Assembly: GCF_056746865.1 (NCBI RefSeq)
Contig: NZ_CM163382.1
DNA: 64,000 nucleotides
Direction: 5' to 3' (one strand)
This document shows, in pieces, positions 2,825 to 35,611 of this stretch. The notes beneath the pieces are model-generated. The model saw only the letters and a program-made list of their open reading frames with translations. It had not been told where the DNA came from and ran no database searches. The translations under genes were made by a program, and so were the position numbers. The first letter of the stretch is position 1, and every line of letters starts with the position of its first letter.

Positions 2825-4192
2825 ATGTTCGGCATAATTATATCTGTCATCGTATTAATTACGATGGGCTATTTGATCCTGAAAAACTACAAACCTCAGG
2901 TGGTGCTGGCTGCCGCAGGTATCTTCCTGATGATGTGCGGTGTCTGGTTAGGGTTCGGTGGTGTGCTCGATCCCGCCAAAAGCAGCGGCTACTTGATCGT
3001 CGATATTTATAATGAAATCCTGCGCATGCTGTCCAACCGCATTGCTGGATTGGGGCTGTCGATTATGGCAGTGGGCGGTTATGCCCGCTATATGGAGCGC
3101 ATAGGGGCAAGTCGCGCGATGGTGAGCTTGTTAAGCCGCCCGTTAAAACTCATTCGCTCGCCGTATATTATTCTGTCGGCAACTTACGTCATCGGCCAAA
3201 TCATGGCGCAGTTTATTACCAGCGCCTCCGGTCTGGGTATGTTGCTGATGGTCACCTTATTTCCGACGCTGGTGAGTCTGGGAGTAAGTCGTCTCTCTGC
3301 GGTGGCGGTTATCGCAACCACCATGTCCATTGAGTGGGGGATTCTGGAAACGAACTCCATTTTTGCTGCCCAGGTCGCAGGAATGAAAATTGCCACTTAC
3401 TTCTTCCACTACCAGCTTCCGGTCGCCTCTTGCGTCATTATCTCGGTGGCGATCTCCCACTTTTTCGTGCAACGCGCTTTCGACAAAAAAGATAAAAATA
3501 TCAATCACGAACAGGCAGAGCAAAAAGCTCTCGATAATGTCCCGCCGCTCTATTACGCCATTTTACCGGTGATGCCGTTAATCCTGATGCTCGGCTCGCT
3601 GTTCCTTGCCCACGTCGGGCTGATGCAGTCAGAACTGCATCTGGTGGTGGTGATGTTACTGAGTTTGACGGTGACGATGTTTGTTGAGTTCTTCCGCAAG
3701 CATAACTTGCGCGAAACAATGGATGATGTGCAGGCGTTTTTTGACGGCATGGGTACGCAGTTTGCCAACGTGGTAACGCTGGTGGTCGCGGGTGAAATAT
3801 TTGCGAAAGGCTTAACGACGATTGGCACTGTCGATGCGGTTATCAGGGGTGCGGAGCATTCTGGTCTGGGCGGTATTGGCGTGATGATTATTATGGCGCT
3901 GGTCATTGCCATTTGTGCCATTGTGATGGGCTCAGGCAATGCGCCGTTTATGTCATTTGCCAGTCTTATTCCGAATATCGCAGCCGGACTACATGTGCCA
4001 GCGGTTGTAATGATTATGCCGATGCATTTTGCCACGACGCTAGCGCGCGCTGTTTCGCCGATTACTGCGGTGGTGGTCGTTACGTCAGGAATTGCAGGCG
4101 TTTCGCCTTTTGCGGTAGTGAAGCGGACAGCGATCCCCATGGCAGTCGGTTTCGTGGTGAATATGATTGCCACAATCACGCTATTTTATTAA
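2825..4192 (+). CDS. dcuD: DcuD, C4-dicarboxylate transporter family (DcuC paralog)
   Basis: Protein begins [34 protein letters not shown]...; the track ORF at 2807 carries a short upstream extension, ATG at 2825 chosen. Confidence 0.92.
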
Positions 4193-4204
4193 GTCATTAA
4201 AAAG

Positions 4205-4233
4205 ACAAAACAGGCCGCCAGGGCCTGTTTTAG
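4205..4233. terminator. Bidirectional intrinsic terminator between convergent dcuD and sspB
   Basis: AAAACAGGCCGCCAGGGCCTGTTTT: GC stem flanked by A-run and T-run. Confidence 0.7.
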
Positions 4234-4235
4234 TA

Positions 4236-4733
4236 TTACTTCACAACGCGTAATGCTGGTCGACCACCACGTGGTGGCTGCGGTGGTTCATCGTCAGGAT
4301 GAGTGTCATCATCGTGATCTGGCTTGTCGCCATCAATAACCGACATAACGGTTTCGTTGTCTGCCGATGCCTCTTCATCATTCATGATGCTGGCATCTTC
4401 ATCGTAGGCAGCTTCAGGTTCAAACATCGTGCCTGCGCCATTTTCACGGGCGTAGATAGCCAGCACGGCAGCCAGCGGCACAGAAACCTGACGCGGAATG
4501 CCACCAAAGCGCGCGTTAAAGCGCACCTCATCATTCGCCAGTTCCAGATTGCCGACAGCACGCGGCGCAATGTTGAGTACGATTTGCCCGTCACGCGCAT
4601 ATTCCATAGGAACCTGCACGCCAGGGAGCGTCACATCCACCACCAGGTGCGGCGTGAGCTGGTTATCCAGCAACCACTCATAGAATGCACGCAGCAGATA
4701 GGGACGACGTGGTGTTAGCTGTGACAAATCCAT
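4236..4733 (-). CDS. sspB: SspB, ClpXP specificity-enhancing adaptor
   Basis: 165-aa ORF MDLSQLTPRRPYLLRAFYEWLLDNQLTPHLVVDVTLPGVQVP... with acidic tail ending ...RPALRVVK. Confidence 0.95.
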   Translation of the reverse strand: MDLSQLTPRRPYLLRAFYEWLLDNQLTPHLVVDVTLPGVQVPMEYARDGQIVLNIAPRAVGNLELANDEVRFNARFGGIPRQVSVPLAAVLAIYARENGAGTMFEPEAAYDEDASIMNDEEASADNETVMSVIDGDKPDHDDDTHPDDEPPQPPRGGRPALRVVK

Positions 4734-28981: not shown

Positions 28982-30922
28982 TTAAACCGAGTATCTTTGT
29001 GAATATTTTTTCACGTTAGTATCAAGTGGCTGTGAGGACGCGAAAAAATCCCCTTGCCCACCTGTAACACCGCGCTGAATCAGGGTCTGCCACTCGCTTC
29101 GCGAACGCACGCCGGTGGCGTAAACCTGGGTGCTGGTCCCGGAGCAGGCTTCCACCAGGCTTTGAACCAGCAGCTGGTTCTCCGTTCGCTTCTCAATGTT
29201 TCTGACCAGCCCCGGATGGAGCTTGAGTAACTCAACATTAAGTTCTTTGATCCAACTGGTGCTTACCAGCGTCAAACCAGCCTGGTTGACGGCTACCCGT
29301 ACCCCTAAAGCATTCACTAAACGAATAACAGGTTGTAAGCGACTGATATGTTGACCTACATCGGCCTCTGCAAGTTCAATAATTATGCGTTTTCGTTGCG
29401 ATCTTTCACATTGCATTAACGTATCTCGCAGCCAACGCTGAAAACGCGGGCGAATCAGCGACTCAACAGTAACCTGAATCGCCAGATTTTCCTCAGGCCA
29501 GTAACGCAATAGTGGAATAAGACGGCTGATTTGCAGGCGGTCATACTCTTCCGATAAGCCAAACTGCAAGACCATCGGCATATACTCCGCCGAGCTAACC
29601 TCTTCATTACCATCGAAGATGCGGCACATGAGTTCGCGATGATGAACCTGACCTTCGCGAGTAACCGCCGGTTTTTGATAAAGGCGCGGGCCGCCGCGAC
29701 TCAGCATTTGCTCGATAAGCGTACGCCAGCGAACATTACCGCGTCCTTTTTCAGGCAACGAGTCATCGTAAATAGCCCAGCTATTGCCGCCCTGCAATCC
29801 CGCATTACGCGTGGCAGACTCTGCATGTTCCATTACCTGCTCGGTATCCTGACCACTACGCCAGGCGCAGATACCAATGTGGATCATATCGTCGCGATCG
29901 AGCATTTTATTGTTCGGCAAGGTATCGACGGCTTTGATTAACTGACCGGCGATGCTCTCTGCCTCTTTTAACGTCCGGTGCGGTAACAGCGCAGCAAAAT
30001 CACTGCGGTGGTAACGCGCCAGCAGTGCGCCAGGGTAGCGCATCATAAATGTCGATAGCAGATTCGTCAGAGAGAAGAACTGTTCTTCAACCTGGCTGTG
30101 CCCCCAGGTATCACTCAACATATTGAAATCCGGCAGACGAATCATCATCACGATCCCGTGGGTACCTACTTTCTCCTGATCTTCCAGTAACGTTGCTAAC
30201 TGATTATCGAAGAAGAGTCGGTTATTGAGGCCGGTTTTCATGTCCTGGGCGGCATAAGAGCGGATCAGCGTATCAAGACGGCTGTGTTGTTCGCGTGCGT
30301 TCTGAATTTCACGAAGCAGCGTATCCAGCGCACTGCTGGTTCTGGGCGGCCATTCATAGATGGTTCCCAAAACATTAGAGCCACGCTCACCGTTTAAGAT
30401 ACGAGTAGCCCGGGTTTCCAGCAATTCTTGCCCGGCAAGTTGCCGTTGTAACCAGCGTACCGCCAGAAAGAGCATAAGAATGATAAAGCCAATCGCCCCC
30501 GTGAGCGGCGCGGTGGTCATCAACGAATGGAAATAGTTGCCCATCGGATCCTGATAAACCAGACGCAGCGACATCCCCGGATGCTTTATCAACGGAACGC
30601 TCAGTTCGCGAAACAGATCGCTGGTGCCAACCGGACGATAACTTCCATTTCTGGCCAGGGTATATACCTGTTTATCACCATGCAGCAGGTCTACACGAAC
30701 GATATCTGCCGACATCATTAATTCGGTAATTTGTGGCCTTAATGCGCTGAAGTCATTCGACACAAGGTGGGTATCAATTGCCGTCGCCACCGCCTGAACG
30801 CGATGACTAAACTTATACTGAATGGCATTGTAGAAACTTAGCGAACAGCCCAGCAAAGTCACAAAAATTGTTAACCCGGTGAGCAGCGTAACAAAGGCCG
30901 AAAATTTCGTCGTTAATCTCAT
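28982..30922 (-). CDS. csrD: CsrD, degenerate GGDEF-EAL protein that targets CsrB/CsrC for RNase E
   Basis: 646-aa ORF MRLTTKFSAFVTLLTGLTIFVTLLGCSLSFYNAIQYKFSHRVQ... Confidence 0.94.
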   Translation of the reverse strand: MRLTTKFSAFVTLLTGLTIFVTLLGCSLSFYNAIQYKFSHRVQAVATAIDTHLVSNDFSALRPQITELMMSADIVRVDLLHGDKQVYTLARNGSYRPVGTSDLFRELSVPLIKHPGMSLRLVYQDPMGNYFHSLMTTAPLTGAIGFIILMLFLAVRWLQRQLAGQELLETRATRILNGERGSNVLGTIYEWPPRTSSALDTLLREIQNAREQHSRLDTLIRSYAAQDMKTGLNNRLFFDNQLATLLEDQEKVGTHGIVMMIRLPDFNMLSDTWGHSQVEEQFFSLTNLLSTFMMRYPGALLARYHRSDFAALLPHRTLKEAESIAGQLIKAVDTLPNNKMLDRDDMIHIGICAWRSGQDTEQVMEHAESATRNAGLQGGNSWAIYDDSLPEKGRGNVRWRTLIEQMLSRGGPRLYQKPAVTREGQVHHRELMCRIFDGNEEVSSAEYMPMVLQFGLSEEYDRLQISRLIPLLRYWPEENLAIQVTVESLIRPRFQRWLRDTLMQCERSQRKRIIIELAEADVGQHISRLQPVIRLVNALGVRVAVNQAGLTLVSTSWIKELNVELLKLHPGLVRNIEKRTENQLLVQSLVEACSGTSTQVYATGVRSRSEWQTLIQRGVTGGQGDFFASSQPLDTNVKKYSQRYSV

Positions 30923-31073
30923 CCTTGTGTTAACTCCGATAGTGAGGAAGCGGGCATACTAGCAAATCAGATTTATCTCGCAATTTATTGCGCTTCATCG
31001 GCTTTGCTTTTCCATTAGCGAGTATAGTCTTCAGAAATTATTTTCCAATCCATCATGCACATGAGGACCACTT

Positions 31074-32048
31074 ATGCAGGCGTTACTTTTAGAACAGCAG
31101 GACGGCAAAACTCTCGCATCGGTACAGACTCTGGACGAAAGTCGCCTGCCGGAGGGCGATGTCACGGTTGATGTTCACTGGTCGAGCCTGAACTACAAAG
31201 ATGCGCTGGCAATTACCGGTAAGGGAAAAATCATCCGTAATTTTCCGATGATTCCTGGGATCGATTTTGCCGGAACTGTACGCACCAGCGAAGATCCGCG
31301 TTTTCATGCCGGTCAGGAGGTATTACTCACTGGCTGGGGCGTTGGTGAAAACCACTGGGGTGGGCTGGCGGAGCAGGCGCGAGTGAAAGGTGACTGGCTG
31401 GTTGCCATGCCGCAAGGGCTGGACGCGCGTAAAGCAATGATTATCGGTACTGCCGGTTTTACCGCCATGCTGTGTGTGATGGCGCTGGAAGATGCCGGTG
31501 TTCGCCCGCAGGACGGCGAGATTGTCGTAACGGGTGCCAGTGGTGGCGTCGGCAGTACCGCCGTGGCGCTGCTGCATAAGTTGGGTTATCAGGTCGTTGC
31601 CGTTTCTGGTCGCGAAAGTACCCATGAATATCTGAAAAGTTTAGGAGCCAGCCGTATTCTCTCTCGCGATGAGTTTGCCGAATCCCGTCCTCTGGAAAAA
31701 CAACTCTGGGCTGGGGCAATTGACACCGTTGGCGACAAAGTGCTGGCGAAAGTGCTAGCGCAAATGAATTACGGCGGCTGCGTGGCGGCCTGTGGTCTGG
31801 CGGGTGGTTTTACTCTGCCAACCACGGTCATGCCATTTATTCTGCGTAATGTCCGTTTACAGGGGGTGGATTCAGTGATGACGCCACCAGCACGCCGCGC
31901 ACAAGCCTGGCAGCGACTGGTCGCCGATTTACCGGAATCATTCTATACCCAGGCGGCAAAAGAGATATCTCTGGCAGAGGCACCGAAGTTTGCCGAGGCC
32001 ATCATTAATAACCAGATCCAGGGTCGCACGCTGGTGAAGGTTAACTAA
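31074..32048 (+). CDS. acuI: AcuI (YhdH), NADPH-dependent acrylyl-CoA reductase, MDR family
   Basis: 324-aa ORF MQALLLEQQDGKTLASVQTLDESRLPEGDVTVDVHWSSLNYKDALAITGKG... Confidence 0.93.
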   Translation: MQALLLEQQDGKTLASVQTLDESRLPEGDVTVDVHWSSLNYKDALAITGKGKIIRNFPMIPGIDFAGTVRTSEDPRFHAGQEVLLTGWGVGENHWGGLAEQARVKGDWLVAMPQGLDARKAMIIGTAGFTAMLCVMALEDAGVRPQDGEIVVTGASGGVGSTAVALLHKLGYQVVAVSGRESTHEYLKSLGASRILSRDEFAESRPLEKQLWAGAIDTVGDKVLAKVLAQMNYGGCVAACGLAGGFTLPTTVMPFILRNVRLQGVDSVMTPPARRAQAWQRLVADLPESFYTQAAKEISLAEAPKFAEAIINNQIQGRTLVKVN

Positions 32049-32084
32049 CCATTTAGCAAGGATTAATAAGAGAGGGAACTCATT

Positions 32085-32915
32085 TTGAAATCATTATTCA
32101 ATCGGTTAACGGGAAAAGCGGTTAGCCGGACAGCTTTCGTCGAACATCTTGGTCATGAAGTTGTACAACATCATCCAAACTGGAAAGTCATGATTTCGAC
32201 TGACCACAAATTGATGCGCATTGATACGGGTCACCAAACTGTGGAAATCACCCTTGATGATGCTTACAAACGTTATCAAGCCGCACCAGACCCGCTGGAA
32301 GAAGTGGCTGCAGATATGCTGAAACAGCTTGCAGAAATGCTGCCGACCGGGCGCTGTATTGTCCCGGTGATTAAAGAAAAAGCCTGGCTGGATACCGTTC
32401 GCCAACAGCTTAGCCAGTATGAGTCTGATCCAGAGGTCCTCAACGCCTCGCTTGATTTTGCCTGGGAAGACTTTAACGATGAGTTAATTATCCTGTTTGC
32501 TGAAGACGGTAGCGAAACCATGCGCTATCTGATGCGCTGCGAAGTGACCATTGACCGCGAACAAGCCATCAGTAATTTGAAGCAAATATTGCCGGAAGTT
32601 ACGGCTGAAATCGTTGATACAGGCGCAAACGATGGAAAAGTTGCCGTTATCTCCGCAGGGGGTACTTATGAGCCCAGTCTGATGCTCATTGACGATCTTT
32701 GGGTGCAATCACCCGATCCTGAATGCGGCGACCTGTTAGTGACCGTTCCCTCCAGAGGAAAACTGTTTTTCACCCACAATGATCAGCCAGCAAATCTCAG
32801 CGCATTACGACAGTTAACAGAACAATGCTTCCGTGAGGATGACCATCCTCTGACAACACAGATATTCATCCGCCGTAACGGTCACTTTTATCCCTGGGTA
32901 GAAACCTTGCATTAA
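32085..32915 (+). CDS. Hypothetical protein, 276 aa, function unknown
   Basis: TTG start with GAGGG 8 nt upstream, 831-nt open frame, own intrinsic terminator downstream, host-like composition. No catalytic or nucleotide-binding motif recognised. Confidence 0.65.
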   Translation: MKSLFNRLTGKAVSRTAFVEHLGHEVVQHHPNWKVMISTDHKLMRIDTGHQTVEITLDDAYKRYQAAPDPLEEVAADMLKQLAEMLPTGRCIVPVIKEKAWLDTVRQQLSQYESDPEVLNASLDFAWEDFNDELIILFAEDGSETMRYLMRCEVTIDREQAISNLKQILPEVTAEIVDTGANDGKVAVISAGGTYEPSLMLIDDLWVQSPDPECGDLLVTVPSRGKLFFTHNDQPANLSALRQLTEQCFREDDHPLTTQIFIRRNGHFYPWVETLH

Positions 32916-32978
32916 CGCAACCTCCGTCATGCTTGAAAAAGCTTGTCGGAGTATGTGATGAATGCTGCAAACTCACCG

Positions 32979-33011
32979 AAGCCGATTTTGCTACTAAATC
33001 GGCTTTTTTAT
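32979..33011 (+). terminator. Intrinsic terminator after the unassigned ORF
   Basis: AAGCCGATTTTGCTACTAAATCGGCTT followed by TTTTTATT. Confidence 0.7.
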
Positions 33012-33475
33012 TGTCACGCGGCAAATTCTGAATGCATCACATAGCCGCACTGCCGCCTGACAAAACAGTTTACCTTCTGCAAAATGGGGGGAATAATCTG
33101 ATTTTATTTGATTACAAATTAACCACTTAAACCTATTTCATGCAGAGCATTGTCAGGCGGTTGATTTTGCGTGCTTTAGCATTCACGTTTATCCAGACGA
33201 TGAAGTGAAAATTGCGTAATCCTCAGCAACCGCTGCGTAATGTCGTCTATCTTGTCGCGATCCTGGCATCCCTACATTATTTGTGGTCTGTGAAGATTAT
33301 CTCATTGCAGCCCCTCATCTTCGCAGGGCTGGCTTTACAGCTTTTAGCCTTACGTTATAAGAAGTTCCGTCGATGATGGCGCTAATTTCGTGAATTGTGC
33401 GGCTTGTTGCAAATTACACGGTGTTGAAGGTTATTTACATGTTAGCTGTTGATTATCTTCCCTGATAAGACCAGT

Positions 33476-33510
33476 ATTTAGCTGCCAATTGCTACGAAAT
33501 CGTTATAATG
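33476..33510 (+). promoter_or_regulatory. Probable accBC promoter (-10 TATAAT at 33504-33509), long 5' leader
   Basis: TTGCTACGAAATCGTTATAATGTGCGACC read about 275 bp upstream of accB; exact -35 uncertain because TTGCTA spacing is too short. Confidence 0.5.
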
Positions 33511-33780
33511 TGCGACCTCGTCCTCCCTGACGCAGTTTTTGCGCTGCGGAAAAGGTGACATTGGCGCAACGAAGGTATATTTTGTTTTTTGCCGGAGGAT
33601 AGCAGCAGATCGCTGCACAATGTCCGTCAAGTCTAACATTGACACTCTGGGGCAAAATAGACCGGCGTCCCGGCCTGCTGGAATTTATCGCTATGCATAC
33701 AGCTGTCGGGGCATACGCTTTACAGACGGCGGTGAAACGCCTGTCACAATCACACTAAACAAAGAGTACGGAACCCACTC

Positions 33781-34251
33781 ATGGATATTCGTAAGATTAA
33801 AAAACTGATCGAGCTGGTTGAAGAATCAGGCATCTCCGAACTGGAAATCTCCGAAGGCGAAGAGTCAGTACGCATCAGCCGTGCAGCTCCTGCCGCAAGT
33901 TTCCCTGTGATGCAACAAGCTTACGCTGCACCAATGATGCAGCAGCCAGCTCAATCTAACGCAGCCGCTCCGGCGACCGTTCCTTCCATGGAAGCGCCAG
34001 CAGCAGCGGAAATCAGTGGTCACATCGTACGTTCCCCGATGGTTGGTACTTTCTACCGCACCCCAAGCCCGGACGCGAAAGCGTTCATCGAAGTGGGTCA
34101 GAAAGTCAACGTGGGCGATACCCTGTGCATCGTTGAAGCCATGAAAATGATGAACCAGATCGAAGCGGACAAATCCGGTACCGTGAAAGCAATTCTGGTC
34201 GAAAGTGGACAACCGGTAGAATTTGACGAGCCGCTGGTCGTCATCGAGTAA
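33781..34251 (+). CDS. accB: Biotin carboxyl carrier protein of acetyl-CoA carboxylase
   Basis: 156-aa [37 protein letters not shown]... with biotinylation motif [10 protein letters not shown]. Confidence 0.97.
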
Positions 34252-34261
34252 CGAGGCGAAC

Positions 34262-35611
34262 ATGCTGGATAAAATTGTTATTGCCAACCGCGGCGAGATT
34301 GCATTGCGTATTCTTCGTGCCTGTAAAGAACTGGGCATCAAGACTGTCGCTGTACACTCCAGCGCGGATCGCGATCTAAAACACGTATTACTGGCAGATG
34401 AAACGGTCTGTATCGGCCCTGCTCCGTCAGTAAAAAGTTATCTGAACATCCCGGCAATCATCAGCGCCGCTGAAATCACCGGCGCAGTAGCAATCCATCC
34501 GGGTTACGGCTTCCTCTCCGAGAACGCCAACTTTGCCGAGCAGGTTGAGCGCTCCGGCTTTATCTTCATTGGCCCGAAAGCAGAAACCATTCGCCTGATG
34601 GGCGACAAAGTATCCGCAATCGCGGCGATGAAAAAAGCGGGCGTTCCTTGCGTACCGGGTTCTGACGGCCCGCTGGGCGACGATATGGATAAAAACCGCG
34701 CCATTGCTAAACGCATTGGTTATCCGGTGATTATCAAAGCCTCCGGCGGCGGCGGCGGTCGCGGTATGCGCGTAGTGCGCGGCGACGCTGAACTGGCACA
34801 ATCCATCTCCATGACCCGTGCGGAAGCGAAAGCTGCTTTCAGCAACGATATGGTTTACATGGAGAAATACCTGGAAAATCCTCGCCACGTCGAGATTCAG
34901 GTACTGGCTGACGGTCAGGGCAACGCTATCTATCTGGCGGAACGTGACTGCTCCATGCAGCGCCGCCACCAGAAAGTGGTCGAAGAAGCACCAGCACCGG
35001 GCATTACCCCGGAACTGCGTCGCTACATCGGCGAACGTTGCGCTAAAGCGTGTGTTGATATCGGCTATCGCGGTGCAGGTACTTTCGAGTTCCTGTTCGA
35101 AAACGGCGAGTTCTATTTCATCGAAATGAACACCCGTATTCAGGTAGAACATCCGGTTACCGAAATGATCACCGGCGTTGACCTGATCAAAGAACAGCTG
35201 CGTATCGCTGCCGGTCAACCGCTGTCGATCAAGCAAGAAGAAGTTCACGTTCGCGGCCATGCGGTGGAATGTCGTATCAACGCCGAAGATCCGAACACCT
35301 TCCTGCCAAGTCCGGGCAAAATCACCCGTTTCCACGCACCTGGCGGTTTTGGCGTACGTTGGGAGTCTCATATCTACGCGGGCTACACCGTACCGCCGTA
35401 CTATGACTCAATGATCGGTAAGCTGATTTGCTACGGTGAAAACCGTGACGTGGCGATTGCCCGCATGAAGAATGCGCTGCAGGAGCTGATCATCGACGGT
35501 ATCAAAACCAACGTTGATCTGCAGATCCGCATCATGAATGACGAGAACTTCCAGCATGGTGGTACTAATATCCACTATCTGGAGAAAAAACTCGGTCTTC
35601 AGGAAAAATAA
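34262..35611 (+). CDS. accC: Biotin carboxylase
   Basis: 449-aa product [42 protein letters not shown]...; the track ORF is extended 5'. Confidence 0.97.

What the first reader, a model, noticed from the sequence alone, without database searches (positions are those of the whole stretch)
32085..33011. Unassigned 276-codon gene with TTG start wedged between acuI and accB
This is the only sizeable coding region in the window that I cannot assign to a known E. coli gene. Seen in sequence: a TTG start with a GAGGG Shine-Dalgarno 8 nt upstream, an uninterrupted 831-nt frame beginning 37 bp after the acuI stop, a clean stem-loop plus T-run terminator at 32979-33011, and host-like GC and codon use. 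The protein has no signal peptide, transmembrane run, P-loop or obvious HTH. Its N-terminal third (KVMISTDHKLMRIDTG..VEITLDDAYKRYQ..., then RCIVPVIKEKAWL) is reminiscent of the Bacillus YtpQ (DUF1444/UPF0354) family, but that is a weak impression. My unverified recollection of K-12 MG1655 spacing puts acuI-to-accB near 1 kb there versus 1.73 kb here, so the gene may be strain-variable. The accB promoter and leader from about 33480 on look standard.
Basis: partly seen in the sequence, partly recalled or inferred. Interest (0 to 1): 0.55.

Follow-up and report, generated by a model that had tools for sequence, protein, structure and literature searches.

The report
Intact yrdF, a DUF1444-family gene
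The unassigned gene is real: it is the full-length version of a gene that laboratory E. coli K-12 keeps only as a broken stub (yrdF), it belongs to the widespread but poorly understood DUF1444 protein family, and it is an ordinary strain-variable gene rather than a new kind of system.

Summary
There is a 276-codon ORF at 32085-32915 (+) with a TTG start, a GAGGG Shine-Dalgarno 8 nt upstream and a hairpin plus T-run terminator at 32978-33011. It is the intact allele of the K-12 pseudogene yrdF (b4697).

- **Distribution:** 666 of 5426 complete E. coli genomes carry it, always once and always between acuI and accB. The others share one deletion that leaves the first ~47 codons.
- **Origin:** the gene is ancestral, not an insertion. 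E. albertii has it at the same junctions, and a more distant relative (78% identity) shows acuI-yrdF-msrP. In the window, msrP and msrQ survive only as remnants at 33011-33376.
- **Selection:** dN/dS is about 0.1, both between species and within E. coli.
- **Family:** the protein is a soluble, acidic member of DUF1444/UPF0354. This rests on profile comparison with B. subtilis YtpQ (98.5% probability), a confident AlphaFold model, and structure matches that are almost all DUF1444. Newer RefSeq annotation already names it so.
- **Function:** unproven. The one characterised relative, YtpQ/CgoN, is reported to be an FAD-dependent coproporphyrinogen oxidase. YrdF is far below that equivalog cut-off, and most of its closest relatives carry signal peptides. 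No conserved neighbour was found.

The parts
31074..32048 (+). acuI (yhdH), the upstream gene. It is probably co-transcribed with yrdF, because no promoter-like site was found in the 36-nt gap or in the acuI 3' end.
   Evidence: ORF; RefSeq annotation of the identical strain 118UI; promoter scan.
32072..32076 (+). Shine-Dalgarno GAGGG, 8 nt before the TTG (5 nt before the alternative ATT at 32082-32084).
   Evidence: Sequence. The string gagagggaactcatt-TTG is conserved in E. albertii, O26:H11, strain D7 and the 78% ortholog.
32085..32915 (+). yrdF, intact allele: 276 aa, 31.4 kDa, pI 4.8, a cytoplasmic DUF1444/UPF0354-family protein.
32228..33083 (.). The 856-bp segment missing from the common (K-12-type) allele, where 101 bp of extra msrQ-like sequence stands in its place.
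   Evidence: Junction analysis; population counts.
32978..33011 (+). Intrinsic terminator of yrdF: an 11-bp stem, a 7-nt loop and a T-run.
   Evidence: A hairpin plus T-run at the same place in L005 is visible in the alignment.
33011..33083 (+). Remnant of the 5' end of an msrP (yedY) copy. It aligns with the msrP start of the 78% relative, with the ATG changed to TTG and a 1-nt deletion.
   Evidence: Alignment; the L005 downstream ORF is identified as msrP.
33084..33376 (+). yrdE: the 3' remnant of an msrQ (yedZ) copy, a pseudogene. It includes the 54-aa ORF at 33212-33376.
   Evidence: RefSeq pseudo-CDS; K-12 yrdE; NCBIfam MsrQ match at E 2.7e-10.
33781..34251 (+). accB, the downstream gene, with its own promoter-like site at 33482-33509.

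Best explanation
**Shown.**
- The ORF is a genuine, intact protein-coding gene. It is the full-length allele of what E. coli K-12 retains only as the 143-bp pseudogene fragment yrdF (b4697).
- The ancestral arrangement in this lineage was acuI-yrdF-msrP-msrQ-accB.
- In the window's allele, a deletion removed most of msrP and the first ~100 codons of msrQ and left yrdF whole. About 12% of complete E. coli genomes and E. albertii share this allele.
- In the common allele, a different deletion runs from yrdF codon ~48 into msrQ.
- Where yrdF is kept, it is under purifying selection as strong as that on its neighbour acuI.
- The product is a 31-kDa acidic protein with no signal peptide. It has the three-domain alpha/beta architecture of the DUF1444/UPF0354 family and keeps nearly all family-invariant residues (P94, K97, D141, N164, Y195, S198, W206, P222, R224).

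**Inferred.**
- It is transcribed from the acuI promoter as a two-gene unit and stops at the hairpin at 32978-33011.
- Its biochemical role is not established. I take the most likely role (about 25%) to be the one suggested by the only studied relatives, B. subtilis and P. megaterium YtpQ/CgoN. That would be a cytoplasmic protein handling tetrapyrroles or heme-iron homeostasis, possibly a flavin-dependent porphyrinogen dehydrogenase that passes electrons to quinone.
- Such a role would be redundant with HemG in E. coli, which would explain why most strains have lost the gene without harm.

The confidence given below refers to the identity and evolutionary history, not to the biochemical role.
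For: **Identity.**
- MG1655 has yrdF (143 bp) and yrdE at this locus, and the fragment matches the first 143 nt of the ORF with four differences.
- Strain 118UI is 100% identical and annotates the same 831-nt CDS.
- O26:H11 11368 and strain D7 carry intact 276-aa CDSs from the same TTG.

**Distribution.** 666 of 5426 genomes carry it, one chromosomal copy each.

**Ancestry.**
- E. albertii has the gene with the same downstream junction.
- L005 (78% ortholog) shows acuI-yrdF followed by the msrP start.
- msrP and msrQ remnants are present in the window.
- The short allele carries 101 bp of extra msrQ sequence, so neither allele can derive from the other.

**Selection.** dN/dS is 0.11 against E. 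albertii and L005. Within E. coli, pN/pS is 0.08-0.16, against 0.07-0.09 for acuI.

**Family.**
- 1019 homolog clusters were found.
- 92 of 100 homologs hit PF07285.
- hhalign against YtpQ gives probability 98.5%, E 2.8e-15, over 242 columns.
- The AlphaFold2 model has pLDDT 90.7.
- The listed Foldseek AFDB50 hits are copies of this E. coli protein followed almost entirely by proteins named DUF1444 or YtpQ/UPF0354.
- Conserved residues are retained.

**Role of relatives.**
- CgoN has reported FAD-dependent coproporphyrinogen III oxidase activity (PMC10965808).
- A ytpQ mutant derepresses the Fur and PerR regulons (PMC3176815).
Against: **Against the biochemical inference.**
- YrdF scores 22.6 bits on the YtpQ equivalog model NF010189, whose cut-off is 221. 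The YrdF-family profile is only ~18% identical to YtpQ over the hhalign alignment.
- At least 54 of 100 aligned homologs from its own subfamily carry Sec signal peptides or lipoboxes. That fits poorly with a cytoplasmic FAD/quinone enzyme as the family-wide function.
- The enteric clade differs from the family consensus at several well-conserved polar positions: N59, D225 and Y254.
- E. coli makes heme by the protoporphyrin route, so it has no need for coproporphyrinogen oxidation (established knowledge).
- The S. aureus DUF1444 gene is not needed for heme synthesis (PMC6620371).
- CgoN turnover is very slow, 0.63 per min.
- No heme gene or any other conserved neighbour appears in 66 metagenomic loci or in the separate contigs carrying distant homologs.

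**Against co-transcription.** This rests only on the absence of a promoter-like match. No expression data were available.
Confidence: 0.85

Rival explanations
1. YrdF is an accessory factor of the adjacent MsrPQ methionine-sulfoxide reductase system. It could be, for example, a cytoplasmic partner that delivers electrons or heme to the heme-b membrane subunit MsrQ. On this reading it became dispensable once the local msrPQ copy was deleted, which is why most strains then lost it.
For: - yrdF lies immediately upstream of msrP in the 78% relative.
- msrP and msrQ remnants follow it in the window.
- The common deletion removes yrdF together with msrPQ sequence.
- Relatives of the family are linked to flavin, heme and iron physiology.
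Against: - A terminator separates yrdF from msrP.
- The linkage is seen in one lineage only. No MsrP- or MsrQ-like neighbour recurs in 66 metagenomic loci or in the other contexts examined.
- E. coli still has msrPQ elsewhere, so loss of the local copy would not remove the supposed partner.
- yrdF remains under purifying selection in strains that lack the local msrPQ.
Confidence: 0.08
2. YrdF has a role unrelated to tetrapyrroles. It could be a small-molecule or protein-binding scaffold, or an unrecognised hydrolase, with a function shared by the mostly exported Gram-negative DUF1444 proteins. On this reading the CgoN activity is lineage-specific or adventitious.
For: - More than half of the closest homologs are predicted to be secreted or to be lipoproteins.
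- Domain fusions involve only DUF6572.
- There is no conserved neighbour.
- CgoN is slow, and its role is disputed in S. aureus.
Against: No positive evidence points to any specific alternative activity. The only biochemical and genetic data for the family concern tetrapyrrole and iron physiology.
Confidence: 0.5
3. The ORF is a strain-specific insertion, acquired horizontally as a small island, rather than an ancestral gene.
For: - Its GC content is slightly lower than that of its neighbours (47.7% against 51-55%).
- The 62% homologs sit among KfrA_N and Aca2-type genes typical of mobile elements.
- It is present in only 12% of genomes.
Against: - Genomes without the gene retain its first ~143 nt in place.
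- E. albertii and a Salmonella-distance relative (dS about 1.1) have it in the same position after acuI.
- Long alleles differ by up to 9% at synonymous sites, which fits vertical descent.
- No copy was found on true plasmids or in phages.
- There are no repeats or integrase at the borders.
Confidence: 0.03
4. The ORF is a decaying relic or a spurious frame that makes no functional protein.
For: - 88% of complete E. coli genomes have lost it.
- Truncated variants exist (P0004, P0005, P0009, P0010).
- E. albertii carries a 1-nt deletion that shortens the C-terminus by 5 residues.
- I have no expression data.
Against: - pN/pS is 0.08-0.16 within E. coli and 0.11-0.15 against E. albertii, equal to that of the housekeeping neighbour.
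- Nearly all family-invariant residues are kept.
- The structure prediction is confident.
- The Shine-Dalgarno sequence and start codon are conserved.
Confidence: 0.05

Closest known systems
E. coli K-12 pseudogene yrdF (b4697), with its neighbour yrdE (b4646)
   Same: The locus is the same, between acuI and accB. The 143-bp K-12 fragment corresponds to the first ~47 codons of this ORF, including the TTG start, with four nucleotide differences. yrdE is the same msrQ remnant found in the window at 33084-33376.
   Different: K-12 lacks window 32228-33083, which covers codons 48-276, the terminator and the msrP remnant. In its place K-12 has 101 bp of additional msrQ-like sequence. The gene is intact and under selection here, and dead in K-12.
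RefSeq proteins WP_000838295.1 and WP_000202360.1, annotated 'hypothetical protein' or 'DUF1444 domain-containing protein'
   Same: WP_000838295.1 is annotated on the CDS of strain 118UI, whose region is 100% identical to the window. The O26:H11 protein is 98% identical.
   Different: None. This is the same gene as already catalogued by automatic annotation, and no function is attached to it.
YtpQ/CgoN of Bacillus subtilis and Priestia megaterium (UPF0354, Pfam DUF1444, NCBIfam NF010189)
   Same: The two are homologous over almost the full length (hhalign probability 98.5%, 242 columns). They have the same size and three-domain alpha/beta architecture, and share the motifs RIxPVI(K/R), YAxD, NL, Y(E/D)AS and (I/V)P. 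Both lack a signal peptide.
   Different: - Identity in the family-profile alignment with YtpQ is only ~18%.
- YrdF scores 22.6 bits against a 221-bit equivalog cut-off.
- YtpQ sits in the ytpPQR operon under Spx control, in organisms that use the coproporphyrin-dependent heme pathway. E. coli uses the protoporphyrin pathway and has HemG.
- FAD binding and porphyrinogen oxidase activity are untested for YrdF.
Gram-negative DUF1444 subfamily (Proteobacteria, Bacteroidota and others; ~280 aa)
   Same: These are the closest relatives outside Escherichia, at 28-41% identity over the full length. The conserved core is the same, and the Foldseek hits are all of this kind.
   Different: Most of them carry an N-terminal Sec signal peptide or lipobox. 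YrdF and its enteric clade instead have a short polar N-terminus (MKSLFNRLTGK). The enteric clade also departs from the consensus at N59, D225, G231 and Y254.

Membership tests
Pfam DUF1444 / UPF0354 (family level) | Significant match of the protein itself to the PF07285 profile | tested here: inconclusive
   The match is full-length but weak: residues 29-270 against model positions 15-254 of 264, E 0.012, 15.7 bits.
Pfam DUF1444 / UPF0354 (family level) | Homology shown through intermediate sequences or profiles | tested here: met
   92 of 100 aligned homologs hit PF07285 at E<=0.001, with a best value of 1.3e-19. The family profile against B. subtilis YtpQ gives hhalign probability 98.5% and E 2.8e-15 over 242 columns. 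The YtpQ sequence was recalled from memory, then validated at 431.9 bits on NF010189.
Pfam DUF1444 / UPF0354 (family level) | Three-domain alpha/beta architecture of ~260-290 residues | tested here: met
   The AlphaFold2 model has pLDDT 90.7. After the three E. coli copies of the protein itself, the top Foldseek AFDB50 hits are almost all named DUF1444 or YtpQ/UPF0354 and align over ~270-287 columns. The moderate TM-scores (~0.55) fit the mobile N-terminal domain described for CgoN.
Pfam DUF1444 / UPF0354 (family level) | Family-invariant residues retained | tested here: met
   P94, K97, D141, N164, L165, G193, Y195, S198, W206, G215, P222 and R224 are all present. The protein deviates at N59, D225, G231 and Y254.
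CgoN (YtpQ equivalog, NCBIfam NF010189): oxygen-independent coproporphyrinogen III oxidase | Score at or above the curated equivalog cut-off of 221 bits | tested here: not met
   22.6 bits, E 6.6e-5.
CgoN (YtpQ equivalog, NCBIfam NF010189): oxygen-independent coproporphyrinogen III oxidase | FAD cofactor, and oxidation of coproporphyrinogen III with a quinone acceptor | not testable with these tools
   This is defined biochemically in PMC10965808. It requires purified protein.
CgoN (YtpQ equivalog, NCBIfam NF010189): oxygen-independent coproporphyrinogen III oxidase | Genomic association with heme-synthesis genes of the coproporphyrin-dependent pathway | tested here: not met
   The neighbours here are acuI, msrP/msrQ remnants and accB. 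No heme gene recurs next to homologs in 66 metagenomic loci or in the other contigs examined.
CgoN (YtpQ equivalog, NCBIfam NF010189): oxygen-independent coproporphyrinogen III oxidase | Cytoplasmic location | tested here: met
   YrdF has no signal peptide or transmembrane segment. However, at least 54 of 100 aligned members of its own subfamily have signal peptides.
E. coli yrdF locus (orthology with K-12 b4697) | Same chromosomal position, and near-identity with the K-12 fragment | tested here: met
   The gene lies between acuI and accB. The 143-nt fragment aligns from the TTG with four mismatches.

The most novel reading that the evidence does not exclude
YrdF and the large Gram-negative DUF1444 subfamily, much of it exported to the periplasm, may share a function that is not the cytoplasmic FAD-dependent coproporphyrinogen oxidation assigned to Bacillus CgoN. 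One possibility is tetrapyrrole or heme binding and handling at the membrane, which in enterobacteria might originally have served the adjacent heme-b protein MsrQ. E. coli strains with and without yrdF would then be a ready-made natural knockout series for finding the true role of DUF1444.
Probability: 0.12. Interest if true: 0.5.

Novelty: already known. Interest (0 to 1): 0.2.

Why it matters
The practical value is mainly for annotation and bookkeeping.
- The K-12 pseudogene yrdF has a living, selected counterpart in about one in eight sequenced E. coli, including the O26, O111 and O145 EHEC lineages. The locus also records the decay of a second msrPQ copy.
- The wider DUF1444 family is large, has no solved structure, and has only one contested biochemical assignment.
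- E. coli strains that naturally differ at yrdF offer a tractable genetic system to test that assignment.

None of this would surprise a specialist.

Tried and rejected
**Searches that gave nothing useful.**
- Direct sequence searches of the PDB, with the protein and then with the family profile, found nothing better than E 0.25.
- PADLOC defence models gave no hit.
- The phage collection gave no hit. The only 'plasmid' hits were chromosome-sized or large records from E. coli, and only one of them covered the whole protein.
- Rfam gave only two sub-threshold chance matches in 30800-34400.

**Context searches for a functional partner.**
- The genome-contig scan with the full alignment failed because no stretch was conserved enough. 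With the enteric alignment it returned only E. albertii.
- Ten exact-protein contig look-ups and 80 metagenomic loci gave no recurrent neighbour. The largest neighbour cluster was a TctC-like protein in 5 of 66 loci.
- Domain fusions were scanned with Pfam and showed only DUF6572.

**Names and readings rejected.**
- The source name 'initiation of DNA replication' attached to some database copies has no support in any search, and I regard it as an annotation artefact.
- The island or insertion reading and the spurious-ORF reading were rejected, as explained under the rival explanations.

Full report
**Observation.** The window contains an uninterrupted ORF at 32085-32915 on the + strand. It starts with TTG and encodes 276 aa.
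- It begins 37 nt after the acuI stop at 32048.
- GAGGG lies at 32072-32076, 8 nt upstream of the start.
- A terminator-like hairpin (11-bp stem, 32978-33006) with a T-run follows.
- The product is 31.4 kDa with pI 4.8 and has no hydrophobic segment.
- GC content is 47.7%, a little below the neighbouring genes.

**What the locus is in E. coli.** I compared 32049-33780 with 5426 complete E. coli genomes.
- All but one genome match, but only 666 contain the whole stretch. The rest match about half of it in two pieces spanning ~977 bp.
- The segment specific to the window's allele (32228-33083) is found in 669 genomes, nearly full-length in 666. It is always a single chromosomal copy.
- In MG1655 the same position is annotated with two pseudogenes: yrdF (b4697, 143 bp) and yrdE (b4646, 394 bp). 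A published strain table also notes both as pseudogenes (PMC7648144).
- The K-12 yrdF fragment is the first 143 nt of the window's ORF with four substitutions.

The window therefore carries the intact allele of yrdF. Strain 118UI is 100% identical and annotates the same 831-nt CDS as a hypothetical protein. O26:H11 11368 and strain D7 carry intact 276-codon versions from the same TTG. Newer RefSeq annotations call the gene 'DUF1444 domain-containing protein'.

**History of the locus.**
- *Allele junctions.* The two alleles are collinear up to 32227 and again from 33084. Between these points the window has 856 bp and the common allele has 101 unrelated bp.
  - Those 101 bp lie inside what K-12 annotates as yrdE. 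By my reading they encode MsrQ-like residues just upstream of the part the window retains.
  - The retained 54-aa ORF at 33212-33376 matches the MsrQ model (E 2.7e-10). RefSeq marks 33074-33376 as a YedZ/MsrQ pseudogene.
- *The 78% relative.* A metagenome-derived contig (L005) carries a 78% ortholog.
  - yrdF there follows acuI with the same Shine-Dalgarno and TTG.
  - It is followed, after a hairpin plus T-run, by an ORF whose first 50 codons have a twin-arginine-type signal.
  - The DNA of that ORF is 80-82% identical to E. coli msrP.
  - Window 33011-33035 aligns with that msrP start.
- *Inferred ancestral order.* This was acuI-yrdF-msrP-msrQ-accB.
  - The window's allele lost the msrP body and the 5' part of msrQ.
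  - The common allele lost yrdF from codon ~48 through to an earlier point in msrQ.
  - Neither allele can be derived from the other.
- *E. albertii.* It has the gene (94% identity) with the same downstream junction as the window, so the long allele is old.
- *Elsewhere.* E. coli keeps a functional msrP at another locus.

**Is the gene functional?** The evidence says yes.
- Nei-Gojobori estimates give dN/dS of 0.11 against E. albertii and 0.12 against L005.
- Among three E. coli long alleles, pN/pS is 0.08-0.16. The neighbouring acuI gives 0.07-0.09.
- N-terminal residues 2-35 are conserved in the 62-78% homologs, which supports a start at or next to the TTG.
- An ATT immediately upstream aligns with the ATG used by the 62% homologs, so the exact initiation codon is unresolved.
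- A few truncated variants exist, and one O157:H7 genome has a third, different deletion.

**Family.**
- The protein on its own gives only weak, though full-length, matches to Pfam DUF1444 (E 0.012) and to NCBIfam NF010189 (22.6 bits against a cut-off of 221).
- An exhaustive HMMER search of 1.84 billion cluster representatives found 1019 relatives at E<=1e-3 and 386 at E<=1e-10. Most are ~280 aa and 28-41% identical over nearly the full length.
- Of 100 aligned members, 92 match DUF1444 at E<=0.001.
- The family profile aligns with B. subtilis YtpQ at 98.5% probability (E 2.8e-15, 242 columns), sharing the RIxPVI(K/R), YAxD, NL, Y(E/D)AS and (I/V)P motifs. I wrote the YtpQ sequence from memory and validated it at 431.9 bits on NF010189.
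- AlphaFold2 with this alignment gives a confident model (pLDDT 90.7).
- Foldseek against AFDB50 first returns copies of this E. coli protein. The hits after that are almost all named DUF1444 or YtpQ/UPF0354, from many phyla.
- YrdF keeps nearly all family-invariant residues but differs at N59, D225, G231 and Y254.

YrdF is not a YtpQ equivalog.

**Function.** What is known comes from Firmicutes.
- P. megaterium YtpQ was reported as CgoN, an FAD-dependent, oxygen-independent coproporphyrinogen III oxidase with a kcat of 0.63 per min (PMC10965808).
- A B. subtilis ytpQ mutant derepresses the Fur and PerR regulons (PMC3176815).
- The S. aureus homolog is not required for heme synthesis, and its function was left open (PMC6620371).

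Several observations argue against simply transferring the CgoN role.
- The equivalog score is very low.
- E. coli uses the protoporphyrin route (established knowledge).
- At least 54 of 100 aligned subfamily members carry Sec signal peptides or lipoboxes, so much of the subfamily works outside the cytoplasm.

I looked for a functional partner and found none.
- Contigs carrying distant homologs show unrelated neighbours.
- In 66 usable metagenomic loci out of 80, no neighbour family recurs in more than five.
- Domain fusions involve only DUF6572.
- The one suggestive linkage is to msrPQ in the enteric lineage, but a terminator intervenes and the linkage is not seen elsewhere.

I therefore commit only weakly (about 25%) to a tetrapyrrole or heme-iron role of the CgoN type. 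I give about 8% to an MsrPQ-accessory role. The remainder goes to a function not yet described for the family.

**Verdict.** It is an already catalogued accessory gene: the intact form of the K-12 pseudogene yrdF, a DUF1444-family protein of unproven function. It is ancestral to Escherichia and lost by deletion in most E. coli. It is of low general interest. It has modest value as a natural presence/absence system for working out what DUF1444 proteins do.

Noticed in passing
window 33011-33376: The spacer between yrdF and the accB promoter is the wreck of a second msrPQ operon. It holds a ~73-bp remnant of the msrP 5' end fused to the last ~100 codons of msrQ (K-12 yrdE). The K-12-type allele keeps 101 bp more of msrQ, so the two E. 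coli alleles arose by independent deletions from acuI-yrdF-msrP-msrQ-accB.
   Followed up: yes
window 32082-32087: An ATT codon directly precedes the TTG start. It occupies the position of the ATG start codon in the 62%-identical homologs (L004, L007). The true initiation codon could be either ATT or TTG.
   Followed up: partly
alignment A2 (homologs P0016-P0155): At least 54 of 100 aligned homologs from the Gram-negative DUF1444 subfamily begin with a Sec-type signal peptide, several with a lipobox. Members without one, including YrdF, often start with a short motif like MKxLLxxLFG. The family has more than 1000 clusters at 50% identity. That contrasts with the published view that YtpQ/CgoN is almost confined to Bacillaceae.
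   Followed up: partly
L007 1-5501 (62% homolog P0007 at 3898-4731): The 62%-identical homolog lies in an AT-rich contig next to genes with KfrA_N, Aca2_YdiL and DUF7352 domains. That looks like a plasmid or other mobile element, so this clade may also travel horizontally. No copy was found in the phage collection, and none on a plasmid other than large or chromosome-sized E. coli records.
   Followed up: partly
L019 2296-2550 (E. coli O157:H7 strain TR01): This genome has a third allele, with a yrdF remnant annotated as an 84-aa ORF. It matches only the last 41 bp of the window-specific segment, which indicates a further independent deletion at this locus.
   Followed up: no
L006 8001-8816 (E. 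albertii NBRC 107761): The E. albertii ortholog has a 1-nt deletion near the 3' end, which ends the protein 5 residues early (271 aa).
   Followed up: no
window 33138-33189: The two E. coli alleles differ at 8 positions within ~50 bp just downstream of the right-hand junction, against 2 differences in the following ~600 bp. This suggests the alleles are old and that recombination has homogenised the flank beyond this point.
   Followed up: no
database copies P0005 and UniProt A0A376NW46: Some public records name this protein 'initiation of DNA replication'. Nothing in any search supports that name, and it looks like an annotation artefact.
   Followed up: partly
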